DNA of 64,000 bases from a virus, in IMG/VR virus record IMGVR_UViG_3300037851_000431, positions 1 through 64,000 of that record. One strand, written 5' to 3'. The translations under genes and the position numbers were made by a program. Positions 3,845 to 35,604 of the stretch are shown piece by piece; the stretch's first letter is position 1; each line of letters begins with the position of its first letter. The notes under the pieces are model-generated. The model was not told the origin of the DNA, ran no database searches, and worked only from the letters and a program-made list of their open reading frames with translations.

Positions 3845-3922
3845 GGTTCCTTGCCTGAGTGGTTTAAAGGGGGCGGTTGCAGACCGCTTATTTCGTCAGT
3901 TCGAATCTGACAGGAACCTCCA
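3845..3922 (+). tRNA. tRNA-Cys(GCA)
   Basis: GGCGG-TTGCAGA-CCGCT, U73, CCA. Confidence 0.93.
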
Positions 3923-3923
3923 C

Positions 3924-3997
3924 GGGGGTATAGTTTAGCGGGAGAACATCTGCTTTGCACGCAGAAAACGGCAGTTCAATTCTGCCTACCTCCACCA
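3924..3997 (+). tRNA. tRNA-Ala(TGC)
   Basis: TCTGC-TTTGCAC-GCAGA, G3:U70 pair, CCA. Confidence 0.93.
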
Positions 3998-4013: not shown

Positions 4014-4352
4014 ATGGAACCTACTGAAGAAGCAATTGTAGCAATGGAAGCAGCGGTAGATGCTGCTTTAGGACTTCAACCCTATTCTTTTGGCGGAAGA
4101 AAGACGTTTGCTAAGAATATCATCGAGCATTTACCGCCTTCGTTCTGTTTCGGGTCCGAATATCTTGAATTGGAATCAGAGTATGCTCGCCTTCGCAGAA
4201 TCGAGGAAGCACGGGACCAATGTTCCGGTTCGCCCGAACATTACGGTGGTTGTGGCTGTCTGTGCCACGGTGATTATATCATTGAAACTCATTATACAGC
4301 GACGGATGCTTTTCCCGGTATAGAAAAATCAGGGATAAATGAGAATGGTTGA
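4014..4352 (+). CDS. hypothetical protein
   Basis: 112 aa ORF with GAGG RBS. Confidence 0.55.
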   Translation: MEPTEEAIVAMEAAVDAALGLQPYSFGGRKTFAKNIIEHLPPSFCFGSEYLELESEYARLRRIEEARDQCSGSPEHYGGCGCLCHGDYIIETHYTATDAFPGIEKSGINENG

Positions 4353-5520
4353 TGTAGTAGTAGGACTTCAATGGGGAGATGAGGGGAAGGGCAAACTTGT
4401 TGATCTTTTAACCCCACTTTATGATATTGTAGCAAGATTTCAAGGGGGACCAAACGCTGGGCACACCATCTATATAGATGAAAATAAGTATGTACTTCAT
4501 ACAATTCCTAGTGGAATTCTTCATCCCCACACCCAAAATGTAATAGGTAGTGGGGTAGTTATTGATCCTATTTGTCTTCAAAAAGAAGTCGGAGAATTAG
4601 AAGCACTTGGTATTGATGTTAAATCTCGACTTTTTATCTCTAAAAAGGCTCACCTTATTCTTCCTACGCATATTCTGCTTGATAAGGCACACGATAAGGT
4701 AGGAACAACCCATAAAGGGATTGGTCCTGCTTATACTGATAAGATTGCGAGAAATGGGCTTCGGGTTGGGGATATATTAAATAATATTTGGAGAACCCAA
4801 TATCAGGATATGGTTGTTGTTCATGGAAATATCCTAAAGATGGATGAACAAACGACTAAAGAATATACAGAAGCAGAAGATAGGTGGTTTGAGAGCATTG
4901 AATTTCTAAGGGGGTTGCAACTCGTTGATACTGAAGAGTATCTTAATAGTGCCATTATGCAGGATAAAAACATCCTTGCAGAAGGGGCGCAAGGAACGAT
5001 GCTAGATGTTGATTTTGGAAACTACCCTTATGTAACATCATCTAATACTGTTGCTGGTGCAGCTTGTACGGGACTTGGTATTGCGCCCACCAAAATTAAG
5101 AATGTTATCGGTGTTTTTAAAGCTTATGCAACAAGAGTAGGAAATGGTCCATTTCCATCTGAACAGGATAACGAGATTGGGGAACAAATTCGTTCTGTTG
5201 GTAATGAGTATGGATCAACAACAGGCCGACCAAGACGAGTTGGTTGGCTTGATATGCCCGCCCTAAAGTATGCTGTTATGCTTAACGGGGTAACAGAGTT
5301 GGCAATGATGAAAGCCGATGTTTTGAGTGGTTTTGAAACTATTAAGGTGTGTACTGGTTATGATGAACAGTCAACCATGTATACTGAGTTTGAAGGATGG
5401 AATGAAAAAGGTATTTCACCCGCCCTGCAAAATTATATAGATTATATATATAATTATGTGGGTGTAAAGATTACACTTGTATCTGTTGGAAGAGATAGAA
5501 AAGATGTATGTTTTCCATAA
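4339..5520 (+). CDS. purA: Adenylosuccinate synthetase
   Basis: GLQWGDEGKGK, RFQGGPNAGHT, GTTHKGIGPAY, EGAQG, YPYVTSS, TTGRPRRVGWLD. Confidence 0.97.
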   Translation: MRMVDVVVGLQWGDEGKGKLVDLLTPLYDIVARFQGGPNAGHTIYIDENKYVLHTIPSGILHPHTQNVIGSGVVIDPICLQKEVGELEALGIDVKSRLFISKKAHLILPTHILLDKAHDKVGTTHKGIGPAYTDKIARNGLRVGDILNNIWRTQYQDMVVVHGNILKMDEQTTKEYTEAEDRWFESIEFLRGLQLVDTEEYLNSAIMQDKNILAEGAQGTMLDVDFGNYPYVTSSNTVAGAACTGLGIAPTKIKNVIGVFKAYATRVGNGPFPSEQDNEIGEQIRSVGNEYGSTTGRPRRVGWLDMPALKYAVMLNGVTELAMMKADVLSGFETIKVCTGYDEQSTMYTEFEGWNEKGISPALQNYIDYIYNYVGVKITLVSVGRDRKDVCFP

Positions 5521-7344: not shown

Positions 7345-8892
7345 ATGGCTAGATTAAATACGAAAAAAATTCCAACTAAGATGGAAGAATTAACTGTTAA
7401 CTATGAAGGTGCTGAAGCATATAAGCTTCCTGTAAAGATGCGCTTAGTTGAGCGTGTTGTAGGAGCCTTTTGGAGCGAGGATTTATTCTACGCTACCGGA
7501 AAGGAAATCAGTGGGGAAATCCTGAAAGATATTCAGGAAGTTGCCAAATCTGATCCTAAATTTATTTTACAGCTTGCCGTGTTTGCACGCAATGAGTTGT
7601 ACCTTCGAACAACTCCACAGGTTTTACTTGTTGAGGCGTCGTATATCGCAGAATGCAAGCCTTTTGTTGAGGAGTACACCTCTAAGATTGTACGCCGAGC
7701 CGACGAGTTAACTGAGGTAGTTGCTTATCATATAAGTCGAATGGGAAGTAAGAAAAACTTCGCTAACTCGCTTAAGAGGGGATTAGCGAATGCTTTTCAG
7801 TCATTCGATGAATATCAGTTGAATAAGTACAAGGGCAATACTTCAAGCGTTTCACTTGGCGATGTTGTGAAGATTGTTCACCCAACTTTCAAGGGTGATG
7901 AAGAGTACCGAAAGGCTCTATACGCATATCTAACCAAGGGGGAGGTATCCCCTGTTCTTACAAAGGTATCGGCACTTAAAACCCTGCTTTCACGCGAATC
8001 TTTTGATGATGAGGCTAAGTCTCTCATTAACCAGTCAGCGGCAACGTGGGAATCTGTTGTATCAAAATTTGGCTCAACCAAGGAAGTTTGGGAAGCCATG
8101 ATACCTAAGATGGGTTATATGGCACTTCTTAGGAACCTTCGAAATTTTGAAGAGAAAAATGTTCAATTAAATTCTGTAATTGAACGGTTAACGAATGAAG
8201 AAGAGGTTAAGCGTTCAAAGCAGCTTCCATTCCGGTTTTATGCCGCCCATCAGGAGGTTAAAACCCCTCAGTTAAAGAAAGCCGTTTCCAAGGCATTTGA
8301 GTTATCTATTAATAATACTGTTTTGGGTGGATCAACTGCTGTACTTGTTGACCTTTCGGGATCAATGTATGGTCACACTGTAAGTAAGGGTTCTAAGATG
8401 CTTTATACAGATGTTGCAGCAGTAATGGGCGCAATAGCTGTAAAGAAATCCGAATATCCTGTAGTTATTGCCTTTGCTAACAGTGCAACAAGGGTAGATG
8501 TTGATCCAGATGATACTATGATGACTACAATGAAGAATATTCTTAATTGTGGTGAGGGTGGAGGAACATATGCGTATAAGGCATTTGAAAATCTGCTACA
8601 GAATAAGCACATTAAGTTTGATCGTGTAGTCATGTTTTCAGATATGCAGTGTTATACTGAGAAAAATTATGATGGAAACGATGTTTCCAAACTTTGGAAA
8701 GAATATGTAAACACAGTTAATAAAGATGCTGTGCTATACTCTTTTGATCTTTCTGGATATGGTACATCCAAGTTTAATTCGAAATCTAAAAATGTTGTTA
8801 CAGTAGCGGGTTGGTCTGATAAGATTCTTGATTTTATCAACCTTCACGAAAAAGACAAGAATTTACTTTTGAACGAAATTGCAAAAATGTGA
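7345..8892 (+). CDS. Ro60/Rsr-like TROVE-domain RNA-binding protein with C-terminal vWA domain
   Basis: MARLN start, NYEGAEAY, FDEYQLNKY, HP, TWES, YMALLRNLRN, SKQLPFRF, MIDAS DLSGSM, FSDMQ. Strong AGGAGGT RBS. Confidence 0.93.
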   Translation: MARLNTKKIPTKMEELTVNYEGAEAYKLPVKMRLVERVVGAFWSEDLFYATGKEISGEILKDIQEVAKSDPKFILQLAVFARNELYLRTTPQVLLVEASYIAECKPFVEEYTSKIVRRADELTEVVAYHISRMGSKKNFANSLKRGLANAFQSFDEYQLNKYKGNTSSVSLGDVVKIVHPTFKGDEEYRKALYAYLTKGEVSPVLTKVSALKTLLSRESFDDEAKSLINQSAATWESVVSKFGSTKEVWEAMIPKMGYMALLRNLRNFEEKNVQLNSVIERLTNEEEVKRSKQLPFRFYAAHQEVKTPQLKKAVSKAFELSINNTVLGGSTAVLVDLSGSMYGHTVSKGSKMLYTDVAAVMGAIAVKKSEYPVVIAFANSATRVDVDPDDTMMTTMKNILNCGEGGGTYAYKAFENLLQNKHIKFDRVVMFSDMQCYTEKNYDGNDVSKLWKEYVNTVNKDAVLYSFDLSGYGTSKFNSKSKNVVTVAGWSDKILDFINLHEKDKNLLLNEIAKM

Positions 8893-8893
8893 C

Positions 8894-8923
8894 TTGAAAT
8901 CGGCACTCTATGAGTGTTATAAT
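8894..8923 (+). promoter_or_regulatory. sigma70-type extended -10 promoter for the ncRNA array
   Basis: TTGAAA-N18-TATAAT with TGn; predicted +1 falls at the 5' end of ncRNA 1. Confidence 0.7.
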
Positions 8924-8924
8924 A

Positions 8925-8996
8925 ATATGGGTAGTGTGAAAGGGGATACTTCGACTTGAAACCGCTAAAACCCCCCTTCGTTTTTCTCTCCCATAT
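8925..8996 (+). ncRNA. Y-RNA-like element 1 (short payload)
   Basis: Terminal stem ATATGGG/CCCATAT, TAGTG, inner purine/pyrimidine stem, TACTTC, pyrimidine tract; directly after Ro60. Confidence 0.7.
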
Positions 8997-9009
8997 AATT
9001 AAAAACTAA

Positions 9010-9142
9010 TTAGGTAGTGCAGTGTAGGATTTCTTCGCTTTGGGAGCCTCTGATGTAGGTGCGATTCCTACTCCCCCGAACAACGGGGGATAGCTTAATA
9101 GTAAAGCAGGGTTTGAAGCCTACGCGCGTTCTTCTCTCCTAA
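9010..9142 (+). ncRNA. Y-RNA-like element 2 carrying a circularly permuted tRNA-Pro(TGG)
   Basis: TTAGG/CCTAA, TAGTG, GTGTAGG/CCTACGC, TTCTTC. Payload order: anticodon loop, T arm, closed acceptor hairpin, D arm. Confidence 0.8.
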
Positions 9143-9145
9143 TGC

Positions 9146-9221
9146 GGCCCTATCGTCTAATGGCTCAGGATAACAGACTTTCAATCTGTTGATCGGGGTT
9201 CGATCCCCCGTGGGGCTACCA
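9146..9221 (+). tRNA. tRNA-Glu(TTC)
   Basis: ACAGA-CTTTCAA-TCTGT, CCA. Confidence 0.93.
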
Positions 9222-9236
9222 ACCATAGATAGAAAT

Positions 9237-9368
9237 TGGGGTAGTGACTACTACAGTTACTTCTATTCACCATACTTATGAATTGTAGTGAAATGGTATC
9301 ACGCTTGGCCTTTAACCAAGAGTTACGGTTCGATTCCGGTAATGTCTGTAGTAAAATTTCTCTCCCCA
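9237..9368 (+). ncRNA. Y-RNA-like element 3 carrying a permuted tRNA-Lys(TTT)-like module
   Basis: TGGGG/CCCCA, TAGTG, TACTACAG/CTGTAGTA, TACTTC. Payload order: acceptor 3' strand plus CCA, acceptor 5' strand, D, anticodon, T. Confidence 0.78.
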
Positions 9369-9391
9369 TCTTCTCTAAAAGAAGGTAATTA

Positions 9392-9607
9392 ATGAAAAAA
9401 TTAGATATATTTTTGATAATAGGTATTATGATACTAATTGCTATAGTTGTAGCATTAGTAGGTGGAATAATATTCACATTTTTATGGAATTTAGTTATTC
9501 CTGTAGCATTTAATGGACCAACACTTTCCCTTATAGAAGGAACAGCTTTAATGCTATTGATTCAATTAGTTTTAGCTCCATTAAGTGTTTCAGTTAAAAC
9601 AAGGTAG
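9392..9607 (+). CDS. small two-helix membrane protein
   Basis: Hydrophobic 71 aa ORF with RBS; its TAG stop is the TAG of element 4's TAGTG. Confidence 0.65.
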   Translation: MKKLDIFLIIGIMILIAIVVALVGGIIFTFLWNLVIPVAFNGPTLSLIEGTALMLLIQLVLAPLSVSVKTR

Positions 9608-9694
9608 TGTAGTTATTGGATACTTCGGTGGGTTTGAACCCACGGGTCTTGGTGGAGACTTTTATACGTTCCAATAACGACTCCCCCTCCTTGT
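9599..9694 (+). ncRNA. Y-RNA-like element 4 (T-arm plus closed acceptor-like minihelix)
   Basis: ACAAGG/CCTTGT, TAGTG, GTTATTGGA/TCCAATAAC, TACTTC; two payload hairpins. Confidence 0.72.
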
Positions 9695-9709
9695 ATTTAT
9701 TAAAGTTAA

Positions 9710-9846
9710 TTAGAGTAGTGTTAGTATCAGTTACTTCGGTAAAGCACAAAACATTGAATTTTGAGATTGTAAGTTCGACTCTTACCCTCCCTACTCAGTT
9801 TGGGAGGAAGCTATAAAAACGCTGATACGCCCGTTACCCTCTCTAA
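9710..9846 (+). ncRNA. Y-RNA-like element 5 carrying a permuted tRNA-Gln(TTG)-like module
   Basis: TTAGAG/CTCTAA, TAGTG, GTATCAG/CTGATAC, TACTTC; payload opened in the D loop. Confidence 0.8.
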
Positions 9847-9852
9847 ACTTAT

Positions 9853-9928
9853 TCCGGTGTAGCTCAATTGGTAGAGCGGTTGACTGTTAATCAACTGGTT
9901 GTAGGATCGTACCCTACCACCGGAGCCA
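9853..9928 (+). tRNA. tRNA-Asn(GTT)
   Basis: GTTGA-CTGTTAA-TCAAC, atypical T loop ATCGTAC, CCA. Confidence 0.9.
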
Positions 9929-10204: not shown

Positions 10205-10278
10205 TCGGGGATCGTCTAATGGTAGGACGACTGACTTTGGATCAGTCTATCGAGGTTCAAATCCTTGTCCCCGAGCCA
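10205..10278 (+). tRNA. tRNA-Gln(TTG)
   Basis: ACTGA-CTTTGGA-TCAGT, U1-A72, CCA. Confidence 0.93.
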
Positions 10279-30555: not shown

Positions 30556-30632
30556 GGCCCCGTATCCCAACCGGCAGAGGAAGAGGACTTAAAATCCTTA
30601 TAGTGTCAGTTCGAATCTGACCGGGGCTACCA
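30556..30632 (+). tRNA. tRNA-Leu(TAA), short variable loop
   Basis: GAGGA-CTTAAAA-TCCTT, A73, CCA. Confidence 0.9.
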
Positions 30633-30634
30633 TT

Positions 30635-30711
30635 GGCTTCGTAGCCCAATAGGTAGAGGCGTATGCCTTAGGAGCATATTAGTAAGAGTTCGAATCTCTT
30701 CGAAGCCACCA
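30635..30711 (+). tRNA. tRNA-Leu(TAG), short variable loop
   Basis: TATGC-CTTAGGA-GCATA, A73, CCA. Confidence 0.92.
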
Positions 30712-33414: not shown

Positions 33415-33690
33415 TTGGGACGTAAGAAAAGAGTCCCAATACCAAGAGGACAGTCTTATTATCCTTTAGATTATAACTTTGTATATCATAGATACGATGG
33501 TAAGGTACAATGTTCATACTGTGGTATTTTTGAAAATTATGATACCATAACACGCGATCATGTATATCCTAAGAGCAAAGGTGGCTCAATAACAGTACCT
33601 TGTTGCTATAGTTGTAATGAAGCGAAAAAAGATGCCTTACCTATCGAATGGGCAATTTTTATTTCTAGCGCCATTGATGTTAATGGTTAG
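33415..33690 (+). CDS. HNH endonuclease
   Basis: CSYCG, TRDHVYPKSKGG, CCYSCNEAK. Confidence 0.85.
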   Translation: MGRKKRVPIPRGQSYYPLDYNFVYHRYDGKVQCSYCGIFENYDTITRDHVYPKSKGGSITVPCCYSCNEAKKDALPIEWAIFISSAIDVNG

Positions 33691-33743
33691 CATGACAGCC
33701 TTCCAAGCTGTGTGTATCGGTTCGAATCCGATATGGCGCTCCA
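33668..33743 (+). tRNA. tRNA-Gly(TCC)
   Basis: ACAGC-CTTCCAA-GCTGT, U73, CCA. Confidence 0.93.
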
Positions 33744-33744
33744 T

Positions 33745-33818
33745 AGGACTGTGGTGTAAAGGTAGCATAAGTGACTCCAAACCATTTGGCGAGGGTTCGA
33801 ATCCTTCCAGTCCTGCCA
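33745..33818 (+). tRNA. tRNA-Trp(CCA)
   Basis: Loop CTCCAAA, G73, CCA. Confidence 0.88.
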
Positions 33819-34870: not shown

Positions 34871-35461
34871 ATGGATACATCGACATGGCTATGTGGACCC
34901 CCACCAGCTAAAGGTCAATATCAGAGATACCCAAGTAGATTTATGTACAATCTCAAAAAGTATTACCCGGAGTTTATAAATGACAATACGCTTCATATGT
35001 TTTCAGGTTTTTCTGACTTTGGTGTTACTACCGATTTTCGTCCTGAGACTGGTGCTAGCATTATTGCTGATTATCGCAACATTCCTGTGGGGAATAATGT
35101 ATTTAGCAATGTGTTGGCTGACCCGCCTTACGCGGACCATTGGCAAGGGCAATGGCATGGGGATTTACCCAAGCCTAAGCATATACTACGCGAAGCAAGC
35201 AGAGTTGTTAAATTGGGTGGCCTCATCGGCATCCTCCATATCATCATCATACCTGCCTACAAAGAATTAGGTGTCAAACGAATTGGGTTACACCCTATTC
35301 TTACCGGACCCAATAATGCTATAAGAGTATTTAATGTGTTTAGGCTCGTAACTCAGTCTGGTTTAGAGTACGATCCTGATAAGATCGAAGTCGTTGGTTC
35401 AAATCCAACCGAGCCTACCAGATTTATTCAGTTAACAATGACAGATTATATTGGCCCTTAG
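34871..35461 (+). CDS. putative amino (N6-adenine-type) DNA methyltransferase
   Basis: YP..LHMFSG motif I-like; VLADPPY motif IV; RVVKLGG. Confidence 0.7.
   Translation: MDTSTWLCGPPPAKGQYQRYPSRFMYNLKKYYPEFINDNTLHMFSGFSDFGVTTDFRPETGASIIADYRNIPVGNNVFSNVLADPPYADHWQGQWHGDLPKPKHILREASRVVKLGGLIGILHIIIIPAYKELGVKRIGLHPILTGPNNAIRVFNVFRLVTQSGLEYDPDKIEVVGSNPTEPTRFIQLTMTDYIGP
35342..35420 (+). tRNA. tRNA-Ile(GAT)
   Basis: CGATC-CTGATAA-GATCG, CCA; lies inside the MTase ORF. Confidence 0.94.
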
Positions 35462-35527
35462 TCTAATTGGTAAAACGCCTGTCTCTGGAACAGGAGAGTC
35501 TTGGTTCGATCCCAAGAGGGCCAGCCA
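35452..35527 (+). tRNA. tRNA-Gln(CTG)
   Basis: CCTGT-CTCTGGA-ACAGG, CCA. Confidence 0.92.
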
Positions 35528-35528
35528 C

Positions 35529-35604
35529 CCGCCTATAGCACAATGGATAAGTGTAACAGAGTTCGATCCTGTGGATGGGGGTTCGAATCCCTCTAGGCGG
35601 GCCA
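35529..35604 (+). tRNA. tRNA-Arg(TCG)
   Basis: Loop GTTCGAT, A20, CCA. Confidence 0.85.

What the first reader, a model, noticed from the sequence alone, without database searches (positions are those of the whole stretch)
9738..9816. Element 5 payload: Gln(UUG)-like tRNA permuted in the D loop
Order: GGTAA-AGC (3' half of D arm), A, CAAAA-CATTGAA-TTTTG, AGATT, GTAAG-TTCGACT-CTTAC, CCTCCCT-A, 7-nt linker, TGGGAGG, AA, GCT (5' D stem). This is a third distinct break point, and U33 is again substituted (A). Three different breakpoints, all directly after WCTTC, suggest repeated independent capture of end-joined tRNA sequences at a fixed scaffold position (inference). No reverse transcriptase or ligase gene is visible in this window.
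Basis: partly seen in the sequence, partly recalled or inferred. Interest (0 to 1): 0.75.

Follow-up and report, generated by a model that had tools for sequence, protein, structure and literature searches.

The report
Phage Y RNA with D-arm-split tRNA mimic
Downstream of a phage Ro60 gene lies a conserved small RNA whose ends form a Y-RNA-type handle and whose interior is an almost complete tRNA look-alike joined to the handle through its D arm, an unusual wiring of a known kind of tRNA mimic.

Summary
At 9738-9812 the arm order is D-arm 3' half, anticodon arm, variable loop, T arm, acceptor stem closed by a linker, AA, D-stem 5' strand. It is the interior of a 135-nt element (9711-9845) 0.8 kb downstream of a phage Ro60 (TROVE+vWA) gene.

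I found six distinct members. Five lie beside Ro60 genes that are only 29-54% identical to this one. Five helices are well supported: 97% of cells pair, and 25 of 31 pairs show compensatory changes. ARAGORN sees no tRNA in the native order but calls one in 3-4 of 6 after un-permuting at the D loop, and in 0 of 1000 shuffles.

The 3-bp split D stem is the weak point. It has one covarying pair, and three rival local pairings fit equally well.

The handle aligns position for position with Rfam YrlA. I read the element as a new wiring variant of the known permuted-tRNA-mimic Y RNAs.

"Repeated capture of end-joined tRNAs" is not supported for this element:
- Copies are syntenic and closer to each other than to any of 468 tRNAs.
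- The anticodon is not conserved, and A33 is specific to this lineage.
- The genome has no RT or RtcB.
- Tandem tRNA genes offer a DNA-level origin.

This scan has noted similar phage Ro60/Y-RNA arrays in other genomes.

The parts
7345..8892 (+). Ro60 orthologue (515 aa, TROVE ring plus Ro60-type vWA domain)
   Evidence: Pfam TROVE E 1.6e-40 and vWA_Ro60 E 1.1e-08. 1113 homologues found; the closest are 87, 82 and 80% identical.
8894..8923 (+). Sigma-70-like promoter match (TTGAAA, 18 nt, TG-TATAAT) just upstream of the first element
   Evidence: 11 of 12 hexamer matches. This is a consensus match only. No + strand terminator was found before 10400.
8927..9692 (+). Elements 1-4 of the same scaffold family (8927-8996, 9012-9142, 9238-9370, 9602-9692). 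Interleaved with them are tRNA-Glu 9146-9221 and a 71-aa ORF 9392-9607.
   Evidence: All share GGTAGTG ... WACTTC ... TTCTCYCC. E2 matches Rfam YrlA at 30.7 bits. E3 holds a tRNA-model match of 35 bits.
9711..9845 (+). Element 5, the whole RNA as modelled (135 nt)
   Evidence: Model R1 and its six homologues.
9711..9720 (+). Terminal stem 5' strand (9711-9715, pairs with 9841-9845) and the invariant GUAGUG motif (9715-9720)
   Evidence: All 5 terminal-stem pairs changed on both sides across the six sequences. GUAGUG lies where the Rfam YrlA consensus has the GNCGAAUG motif.
9724..9737 (+). Inner stem 5' strand GUAUCAG (9724-9730, pairs with 9822-9828), then UUACUUC (9731-9737)
   Evidence: 4 of 7 inner-stem pairs changed on both sides. 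UUAC corresponds to the conserved YUAY of YrlA (PMC4201824).
9738..9746 (+). D-arm 3' half: GG (positions 18/19-like), UA, then AAGC as the D-stem 3' strand, then A26
   Evidence: Read from the sequence. The trans D stem 9743-9745 with 9810-9812 pairs in 17 of 18 cells; its middle pair is A-U in four sequences and G-C in two. RNAalifold does not predict it.
9747..9763 (+). Anticodon-arm look-alike: 5-bp stem and 7-nt loop CAUUGAA (UUG, with A33)
   Evidence: All 5 pairs changed on both sides. The loop sequence differs in every homologue.
9764..9785 (+). 5-nt variable loop (9764-9768) and T arm GUAAG-UUCGACU-CUUAC (9769-9785)
   Evidence: T stem pairs in 100% of cells; 4 of 5 pairs changed on both sides.
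9786..9807 (+). Acceptor stem closed into a hairpin: CCUCCCU, A, linker CUCAGUU, UGGGAGG
   Evidence: All 6 modelled pairs changed on both sides and pair in 100% of cells. Linkers in the homologues are GCCAU, ACCAU and ACC+7 nt.
9808..9821 (+). AA (positions 8/9-like), GCU as the D-stem 5' strand (9810-9812), and an A-rich connector (9813-9821)
   Evidence: AAGYU is present in all six members. It could instead pair with the scaffold CUUC.
9822..9845 (+). Inner stem 3' strand (9822-9828), pyrimidine-rich internal loop (9829-9840), terminal stem 3' strand (9841-9845)
9853..9928 (+). tRNA-Asn(GUU), the next gene; it encodes its own CCA
   Evidence: ARAGORN, Rfam 67.4 bits, sequence.

Best explanation
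Element 5 (9711-9845, + strand) is a phage-encoded Y RNA of the YrlA kind, one of five behind the phage's Ro60 gene.

Its 5' and 3' ends pair to form the handle. The handle has a terminal stem, an internal loop with invariant GUAGUG opposite a pyrimidine tract, a 7-bp inner stem and then UUAC.

Its interior is an almost complete tRNA look-alike:
- an anticodon arm with a 7-nt loop
- a 5-nt variable loop
- a T arm
- an acceptor stem closed by a short linker
- a D arm split in two. The GG-containing loop half and the 3' strand lie just after the handle. The 5' strand (AA-GCU) lies after the acceptor stem.

The handle therefore leaves the tRNA body through the D arm. In classical YrlA it leaves through the anticodon end.

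Shown: the five main helices (by covariation), tRNA-like spacing, conservation in six lineages, and linkage to Ro60 in five of the six.

Inferred: the handle docks on the phage Ro60 ring as in other Ro60-Y RNA particles. The tRNA-shaped module then recruits, or acts as a decoy for, a protein that recognises tRNA. With this wiring both the anticodon loop and the acceptor/T-arm helix stay exposed.

The family most likely arose once at the DNA level, for example from tandem tRNA-like units, and then diverged by compensatory change. Recurrent capture is less likely.
For: Ro60 gene:
- TROVE and vWA_Ro60 domains lie 819 nt upstream on the same strand.

Handle:
- The Rfam YrlA model aligns over its whole length to an element with the same scaffold in L077 (52.7 bits). 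That places GGUAGUG at the GNCGAAUG position and UUAC at the YUAY position (PMC4201824).
- E2 of the same array matches YrlA over the V-T-AS-D part.

Conservation:
- Six distinct E5-type members exist. Five lie 0.4-1.1 kb from a Ro60 gene on the same strand. Four of these are syntenic, between tRNA-Glu and tRNA-Asn.
- 97.2% of cells pair, 25 of 31 pairs have double changes, and 0 of 500 shuffles reach this.
- RNAalifold independently predicts the terminal stem, inner stem, anticodon arm, T arm and acceptor hairpin.
- In a close relative from a sediment metagenome, the seven listed differences inside the element all fall at unpaired positions.

tRNA likeness:
- ARAGORN calls a tRNA only after un-permutation.

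Precedent:
- YrlA is a tRNA mimic with a closed acceptor stem and has been described as resembling a circularly permuted tRNA (10.1101/312249).
- Phage Ro60 binds phage-encoded Y-like RNAs (PMC12135203).
Against: - There is no direct evidence of transcription, RNA ends or Ro60 binding.
- No Rfam YrlA match covers E5 itself. YrlA-type elements score at most 52.7 bits against a gathering score of 69.
- The defining 3-bp D stem has one covarying pair with only two states. RNAalifold does not predict it.
- Three rival local pairings fit as well: GUU/RAC, the UUAC/GUAA hairpin, and CUUC/GAAG.
- The structural alignment was fitted to a model built from the window copy, which favours that structure.
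- The sixth member (L368) lies in a MAG in which no TROVE gene was found.
- The function of any Y-RNA tRNA-like module is unknown even for YrlA.
Confidence: 0.7

Rival explanations
1. It is the same Y RNA, but with no tRNA-like D stem. The junction is closed by a local UUAC(UUCG)GUAA hairpin or by CUUC pairing with GAAG, as in element 2. The element would then be a YrlA variant that lost its D arm and keeps three hairpins. 'Permuted in the D loop' would be a coincidence of short motifs.
For: - The UUAC/GUAA hairpin pairs in 15 of 16 cells.
- CUUC/GAAG pairs in 18 of 19 cells.
- A local GUU/RAC stem pairs in 13 of 15 cells.
- The minimum-free-energy fold of the window copy uses the local hairpin.
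- CUUCGG also occurs in YrlA-order elements that have an intact D arm (L027).
- L022 3316-3420 keeps GGUAAAA but has no acceptor stem and no distal strand.
Against: - None of the rival pairings shows any covariation.
- The distal Y11 covaries with R24: C-G in two members and U-A in four.
- tRNA spacing is kept in all members: 2 nt after the acceptor stem, 1 nt before the anticodon stem, a 4-5 nt variable loop, and the acceptor stem abutting the T stem. That spacing is why ARAGORN accepts the re-joined sequences.
Confidence: 0.2
2. RNase P opens the closed acceptor stem, followed by 3' trimming and CCA repair, as reported for M. smegmatis YrlA. The result would be a two-piece tRNA-like molecule with a free CCA end that stays tethered to the Ro60 handle and might even be charged.
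For: - Four of the five orthologues checked have 7 of 7 acceptor pairs.
- Linkers read G-CCA-U (L002), A-CCA-U (L061) and A-CC-N7 (L087).
- M. smegmatis YrlA, which has a 7-bp stem, is cut by RNase P and receives CCA (PMC4201824; 10.1101/312249).
Against: - The window copy has a 6-bp stem plus a U-U, and its linker has lost CCA (ACUCAGUU).
- The L008 and L368 linkers also lack CCA.
- The phage has no CCA-adding enzyme.
- No processing data exist.
Confidence: 0.15
3. It is a true circularly permuted tRNA gene, like the type I (20/21 junction) genes of Cyanidioschyzon merolae. It would be matured through a circular intermediate into a working tRNA-Gln(UUG).
For: - The arm order and the short intervening sequence match permuted tRNA genes. 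D-loop junctions are known in that family (PMC3978253).
- ARAGORN calls tRNA-Gln after re-joining.
Against: - The anticodon loop differs in all six members (UUG, AAU, UUU, UUA, CCA and an irregular loop).
- The window copy has A33 and A8.
- The ends form a long Y-type handle shared with elements that hold no tRNA-like part. They do not form a bulge-helix-bulge motif.
- The genome has no RtcB or Rnl2-type ligase.
- The phage already has tRNA-Gln(UUG) at 10205-10278.
Confidence: 0.04
4. On origin only: each payload was captured independently from an end-joined (circularised) tRNA. This would happen by reverse transcription or ligation into a fixed scaffold site.
For: - Several break points occur on one scaffold.
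- CCA remnants lie at the joined acceptor ends (11 of 42 canonical linkers).
Against: - E5-type members are syntenic and mutually closest.
- No donor tRNA stands out.
- The genome has no RT or RtcB.
- CCA is encoded in this phage's tRNA genes, and tandem genes 1-2 nt apart are common. One example is Leu-Leu 30556-30711, whose 3' and 5' acceptor strands pair 6 of 7. Duplication followed by loss of the outer parts therefore suffices (model in PMC3978253).
Confidence: 0.1

Closest known systems
YrlA-type bacterial and phage Y RNAs (Rfam RF02553; Chen et al. 2014, PMC4201824; Wang et al. 2018, 10.1101/312249)
   Same: - Encoded within 4 kb of a Ro60 gene on the same strand.
- The 5' and 3' ends form a long stem with a conserved purine-rich 5' motif followed by YUAY.
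- The interior mimics tRNA, with a T arm and an acceptor stem closed into a loop.
- YrlA has already been described as resembling a circularly permuted tRNA.
   Different: - In YrlA the handle continues the anticodon stem, the D arm is an intact hairpin after the acceptor stem, and there is no anticodon loop.
- Here the D arm is split by the handle, and a full 5-bp stem with a 7-nt anticodon-like loop is present.
- The 5' motif is GGUAGUG rather than GNCGAAN0-1G.
- E5 has no Rfam YrlA match at all.
Deinococcus radiodurans Yrn1 (as drawn in Chen et al. 2014, Fig. 2E)
   Same: The orientation is D-loop features, then an anticodon-like arm, then a T arm, which is the reverse of the YrlA order. 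The shorter relatives of E5 (L022 3316-3420 and L005 6393-6506) have exactly this content.
   Different: Yrn1 has no acceptor stem, no D stem and a 6-nt loop. E5 adds a closed 7-bp acceptor hairpin and a possible trans D stem. I made no sequence comparison with Yrn1; this resemblance rests on the paper's description.
Circularly permuted tRNA genes of Cyanidioschyzon merolae and Thermofilum pendens (Soma 2014 review, PMC3978253)
   Same: - The 3' half lies upstream of the 5' half.
- The acceptor ends are joined by a short intervening sequence (1-74 bp in that family).
- A D-loop junction (type I, 20/21) exists.
- A tandem-duplication origin model applies.
   Different: - Those genes carry a bulge-helix-bulge motif at their termini.
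- They are matured by the splicing endonuclease and a ligase into working tRNAs with conserved anticodons.
- E5 has a Y-type handle, a drifting anticodon loop and no such enzymes in its genome.
Thermus phage phiLo Ro60 with Yrl1 and Yrl2 (PMC12135203)
   Same: A phage-encoded Ro60 with several phage-encoded Y-like RNAs next to the gene. In vitro binding has been shown there. The phiLo Ro60 is 28.7% identical to this one.
   Different: Yrl1 and Yrl2 are described as stem-bulge-stem RNAs with a CGAA motif. That paper reports no tRNA-like interior and no array interleaved with tRNA genes.

Membership tests
YrlA / bacterial-phage Y RNA | Encoded near (within 4 kb) and on the same strand as a Ro60 (TROVE) gene | tested here: met
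   The Ro60 gene ends at 8892 and E5 starts at 9711. Four of the five other members are also beside Ro60. L368 is not shown to be.
YrlA / bacterial-phage Y RNA | Reaches the Rfam RF02553 gathering score (69 bits) | tested here: not met
   E5 has no YrlA match. E2 scores 30.7 bits. The best scaffold relative scores 52.7 bits.
YrlA / bacterial-phage Y RNA | The 5' and 3' ends form a long stem that carries the conserved 5' motif GNCGAAN0-1G | tested here: inconclusive
   The stem is present, with covariation in 9 of its 12 pairs. The motif itself is absent. GGUAGUG occupies its position in the YrlA model alignment.
YrlA / bacterial-phage Y RNA | Conserved YUAY after the stem, then stem-loops in the order (V), T, closed acceptor, D | tested here: not met
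   UUAC, the hairpin, the T arm and the closed acceptor are present in that order. No D hairpin follows the acceptor, only AA-GCU. The GG half lies upstream.
YrlA / bacterial-phage Y RNA | Bound by Ro60, and modified by TruB and DusA | not testable with these tools
   This needs immunoprecipitation and modification mapping.
Circularly permuted tRNA gene | The 3' half precedes the 5' half, with the acceptor ends joined by a short intervening sequence | tested here: met
   Arm order. Re-joining gives ARAGORN tRNA calls.
Circularly permuted tRNA gene | Bulge-helix-bulge motif (two 3-nt bulges around a 4-bp helix) at the precursor termini | tested here: not met
   The termini form a 5-bp stem, an 8/12-nt internal loop, a 7-bp stem and then 12- and 9-nt single strands.
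Circularly permuted tRNA gene | Encodes a working tRNA, with anticodon and identity conserved among orthologues | tested here: not met
   All six members have different anticodon loops. A close relative differs again at 9753 and 9756.
Canonical tRNA (Rfam RF00005) | Full-length match at or above 29 bits, or an ARAGORN call in the native order | tested here: not met
   25.4 bits over model positions 9-63 only. No match at the gathering threshold. ARAGORN makes no call.

The most novel reading that the evidence does not exclude
The Ro60 handle is a general display platform on which phages present a complete tRNA body in several circular permutations. The orders seen are normal, broken at 26/27, broken in the D arm, broken at the variable loop/T junction, and broken at the T/acceptor junction. 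Each wiring exposes a different face of the tRNA.

The D-arm-tethered form leaves both the anticodon loop and the acceptor end free. It could act as a Ro60-coupled decoy or sensor for host tRNA-cleaving defence nucleases. After opening by RNase P, it could be a chargeable tRNA held on Ro60.
Probability: 0.12. Interest if true: 0.8.

Novelty: new variant of a known kind. Interest (0 to 1): 0.55.

Why it matters
What the tRNA-like module of bacterial Y RNAs does is still an open question. This natural series keeps the same handle but attaches the tRNA body at different points. It includes a form with an intact anticodon arm and a split D arm.

That series gives a ready-made set of comparisons for asking which face of the tRNA mimic matters. 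It also shows that phage Ro60 loci hold more Y-RNA architectures than the single Rfam family covers. Current annotation misses them: no Rfam family reaches its gathering score on E5.

Tried and rejected
I therefore could not fetch the contigs of the closest Ro60 relatives (80-87% identical; P0002-P0004).
- The search for related loci with the single Ro60 protein found nothing in viral contigs. With L061's Ro60 it found only that locus itself.
- The pattern GTAGTG..CTTCGGTAAA in viral contigs gave 118 or more hits, almost all chance matches inside genes.
- The stricter pattern found only two known E5 loci and a normal tRNA in viral contigs (L279). In genome contigs it found one new member among 15 hits.
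- MAFFT alignments of the elements misaligned the acceptor region. I therefore built a single-sequence covariance model with a hand-written structure.
- The fold energy of the window copy is not significant (z -1.13).
- RNAalifold does not predict the D stem or any rival junction pairing.
- No RNA holder is listed among public runs, so nothing can be said about expression.
- The T4 Rnl1 family search is uninformative because its control rang nowhere.
- My automatic arm-order classifier was noisy: 140 of 241 candidate payloads had no arm called. I used it only to find examples, not for frequencies.
- Two Wolin-lab reviews (PMC10870794 and PMC6047535) are not held.

Full report
**Setting**

The window is the first 64 kb of a single-contig virus record of 105,736 bases that CheckV estimates to be 88% complete. 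ARAGORN finds 24 tRNA genes in the window and 26 in the whole genome.

ORF 7345-8892 encodes a 515-aa Ro60 orthologue. Pfam gives TROVE at E 1.6e-40 and the Ro60-type vWA domain at E 1.1e-08. It is under 60% identical to any Ro60 in deposited phage genomes, and 28.7% identical to Thermus phage phiLo. Metagenomes hold many relatives.

A strong sigma-70-like match lies at 8894-8923, directly after the stop codon. Five elements follow, all built on one plan: terminal stem, GGTAGTG, inner stem, WACTTC, variable interior, inner-stem complement, pyrimidine tract, terminal-stem complement. The finding concerns the interior of the fifth element, 9711-9845.

**Observation**

Three independent lines show it is not chance.

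- The Rfam tRNA model matches 9729-9785 over model positions 9-63 at 25.4 bits. The orthologue in L008 scores 32.3 bits, above the family's gathering score.
- ARAGORN sees no tRNA in the native sequence. I joined the acceptor 5' strand plus AAGCUA to the part that starts at CUUC-GG. ARAGORN then calls tRNA-Gln(UUG) here, Ile(AAU) in L008 and Lys(UUU) in L087, and Trp(CCA) in L061 with a slightly different joint. It calls none in 1000 dinucleotide shuffles. Among all rotations of the circularised payload, only those that open at the acceptor linker give a call.
- The same architecture recurs in other phages, with compensatory changes (next section).

**Relatives**

An alignment of Ro60 relatives (A1) retrieved 80 viral and 80 metagenome loci. 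Loci whose Ro60 is 52-54% identical (L001-L008 and others) keep the gene order Ro60, Y-like elements, tRNA-Glu, more elements, tRNA-Asn, tRNA-Gln.

A structural scan looked for a T arm followed by a closed 7-bp hairpin and then AAGYT. It found five distinct E5-type elements:
- the window copy
- L008 6012-6144
- L087 2124-2259
- L002 6597-6719
- L061 3195-3323, whose Ro60 is only 29% identical

A pattern scan of bacterial and archaeal genome contigs added a sixth, L368 3033-3166. It lies on a tRNA-rich 15-kb contig binned to a Candidatus Peribacteria MAG. No TROVE gene was detected in that MAG.

In the clade of the window the element is syntenic. It lies after tRNA-Glu and before tRNA-Asn. A close relative in a sediment metagenome joins 9222 directly to 9724, so that relative lacks E3, the 71-aa ORF and E4 but keeps E5.

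**Structure**

I built a covariance model from the window copy with a hand-written structure and used it to align the six members.
- 97.2% of 179 pair cells are standard pairs. When the 3' partners are slid by 1-3 columns, 37-48% are.
- 25 of 31 pairs show a change on both sides, and no shuffle of 500 reaches any of the measures.
- RNAalifold, run on that alignment without the structure, predicts the terminal stem, inner stem, anticodon-like arm, T arm and closed acceptor hairpin on its own.
- The seven listed differences inside the element in the sediment relative all fall at unpaired positions: anticodon loop 9753 and 9756 plus one inserted T, linker 9795, A-rich connector 9815, and 3' internal loop 9832-9833. 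That is about 1 in 70 by chance, given that 54% of positions are unpaired. It rests on one contig at depth 5.

These five helices are therefore solid. One caveat is that the alignment was fitted to a model derived from the window copy.

**The weak point: the D stem**

The break point 'in the D loop' rests on a 3-bp helix between 9743-9745 and 9810-9812. It pairs in 17 of 18 cells, and its middle pair is A-U in four members and G-C in two. That is a single covarying pair with two states.

Three rival pairings of the same nucleotides fit about as well but never vary:
- a local GUU/RAC stem, 13 of 15 cells
- a UUAC/GUAA hairpin capped by UUCG, 15 of 16 cells
- CUUC with GAAG, 18 of 19 cells. This is the pairing that closes the tRNA-like part of element 2.

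RNAalifold predicts none of them.

The tRNA spacing favours the split D stem. It is kept in all members, with 2 nt after the acceptor stem, 1 nt before the anticodon stem, and GG at the right distance.

One observation counts against needing it. L022 3316-3420 keeps GGUAAAA but has no acceptor stem and no distal strand.

I put the split D stem at roughly even odds. The conservative description is a Y-type handle that carries an anticodon-like arm, a T arm and a closed acceptor hairpin, flanked by D-arm half-sequences.

**What it is**

The handle is the YrlA handle in divergent form.
- The Rfam YrlA model aligns end to end with a scaffold-bearing element in L077 at 52.7 bits, below the gathering score of 69.
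- That alignment places GGUAGUG where the consensus has the GNCGAAUG motif that Chen et al. link to Ro60 binding. It places UUAC at their conserved YUAY (PMC4201824, section read).
- Element 2 of this array matches the V-T-AS-D core of YrlA.

Across the Ro60 loci I fetched, the common interior on this scaffold is a 5-bp hairpin with a 7-nt loop, then a T arm, a closed acceptor and a full D arm. There are 42 distinct cases. The hairpin loop is CUGUUAA in 13 of them, and 11 linkers still read NCCA. That is the published YrlA plan with its 'V' hairpin.

E5 differs in one respect. The GG half and the 3' strand of the D arm lie upstream of that hairpin, and only the 5' strand remains downstream.

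YrlA has already been described as resembling a circularly permuted tRNA with a closed acceptor stem and no anticodon loop (10.1101/312249). Chen et al. also noted that Yrn1 of Deinococcus has the opposite orientation, with an anticodon-like arm (PMC4201824). E5 is thus a new wiring variant of a known kind, not a new kind.

**Other wirings on the same handle**

- L368 (minus strand, from 2043) has T arm, closed acceptor with GCCA, D arm, then an anticodon arm with loop CUCAUAA.
- L335 (from 879) and L368 (minus strand, from 4466) hold whole normal-order tRNA look-alikes ending in CCA.
- Window E3 holds a full-length tRNA-model match of 35 bits.

**Origin**

The inference of repeated capture of end-joined tRNAs does not hold for this element.
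- The six E5-type payloads are each other's best matches (0.71-0.75 identity). Their best matches among 468 distinct tRNAs from all fetched loci are 0.65-0.70.
- The window payload is at most 0.61 identical to any tRNA of its own genome, which equals the mean between unrelated tRNAs there.
- The genome has no RtcB, reverse transcriptase, Rnl2-type ligase or CCA-adding enzyme. The Rnl1 search had no working control.
- This phage's tRNA genes encode CCA, and four gene pairs lie 1-2 nt apart. One is the Leu-Leu pair at 30556-30711, whose 3' and 5' acceptor strands already pair 6 of 7.
- The L002 and L061 linkers read G-CCA-U and A-CCA-U, which is the junction of such a tandem pair. Duplication followed by loss of the outer parts is the standard model for permuted RNA genes (PMC3978253), and it is sufficient here.

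**Function**

Nothing here tests function. By analogy with Ro60-Y RNA particles, the handle should dock on the phage Ro60 and the tRNA-shaped module should engage a tRNA-recognising protein (PMC4201824; PMC12135203; PMC7824862).

The anticodon loop is not conserved. It is UUG with A33 here, and AAU, UUU, UUA, CCA and an irregular loop elsewhere. A close relative has U33 and further loop changes. A decoding role is therefore unlikely.

Four of the five orthologues checked have 7 of 7 acceptor pairs, and three linkers keep CCA or CC. RNase P opening, as shown for M. smegmatis YrlA, is therefore possible in some lineages. It is less likely here, where the stem is 6 bp plus a U-U and CCA is gone.

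**Verdict**

I class the element as a new variant of a known kind and give it moderate interest.

Earlier notes of this scan describe comparable phage Ro60/Y-RNA arrays with a shared handle and interchangeable interiors in other genomes. I did not re-test those.

Noticed in passing
window 9238-9370 (E3), core 9280-9347: The element holds a full-length, normal-order match to the Rfam tRNA model at 35 bits, above the gathering score. Its loop is Lys-like, CCUUUAA. ARAGORN does not call it. Orthologous elements in L006, L007 and L086 have CUU loops, and ARAGORN does call those in L006 and L007 as tRNA-Lys.
   Followed up: partly
L368 minus strand from about 2043 and about 4466; L335 + strand from 879: The same handle carries a T, closed acceptor (GCCA), D, anticodon-arm module with the Met-like loop CUCAUAA. 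It also carries whole normal-order tRNA look-alikes ending in CCA. So at least five different wirings of a tRNA body exist on this scaffold.
   Followed up: partly
window 30556-30711; also 3845-3997, 33668-33818 and 35452-35604: tRNA genes lie 1-2 nt apart and encode their own CCA. [quoted passage not shown] This is a ready-made precursor layout for a closed-acceptor permuted module.
   Followed up: partly
phage Ro60 loci in general (e.g. L022 3590-3718, L018 765-894, L033 3776-3903): In canonical YrlA-order elements, the hairpin upstream of the T arm has a 5-bp stem that starts in the scaffold's UUCG and a 7-nt loop. The loop is CUGUUAA (Asn-anticodon-like) in 13 of 42 distinct cases. It looks more like an anticodon arm than a variable arm.
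   Followed up: no
window 9392-9607: A 71-aa ORF with no Pfam match lies between E3 and E4, and its stop codon overlaps the start of E4. A relative in a sediment metagenome joins 9222 to 9724, so it lacks E3, this ORF and E4.
   Followed up: no
L022 2035-2383: A phage-encoded tmRNA (Rfam 119.5 bits) lies about 1.6 kb upstream of that phage's Ro60 and Y-RNA cluster.
   Followed up: no
window 4339-5520: The phage carries an adenylosuccinate synthetase gene (Pfam Adenylsucc_synt, 494 bits). Next to it are a methyltransferase and an HtrL-like gene.
   Followed up: no
window 9715-9720 and the same motif in all five elements: The invariant GGUAGUG of the handle also occurs, from memory, just after GGUCCGA in the 5' strand of human Y1 and Y4 RNAs. 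I did not test this and it may be coincidence.
   Followed up: no
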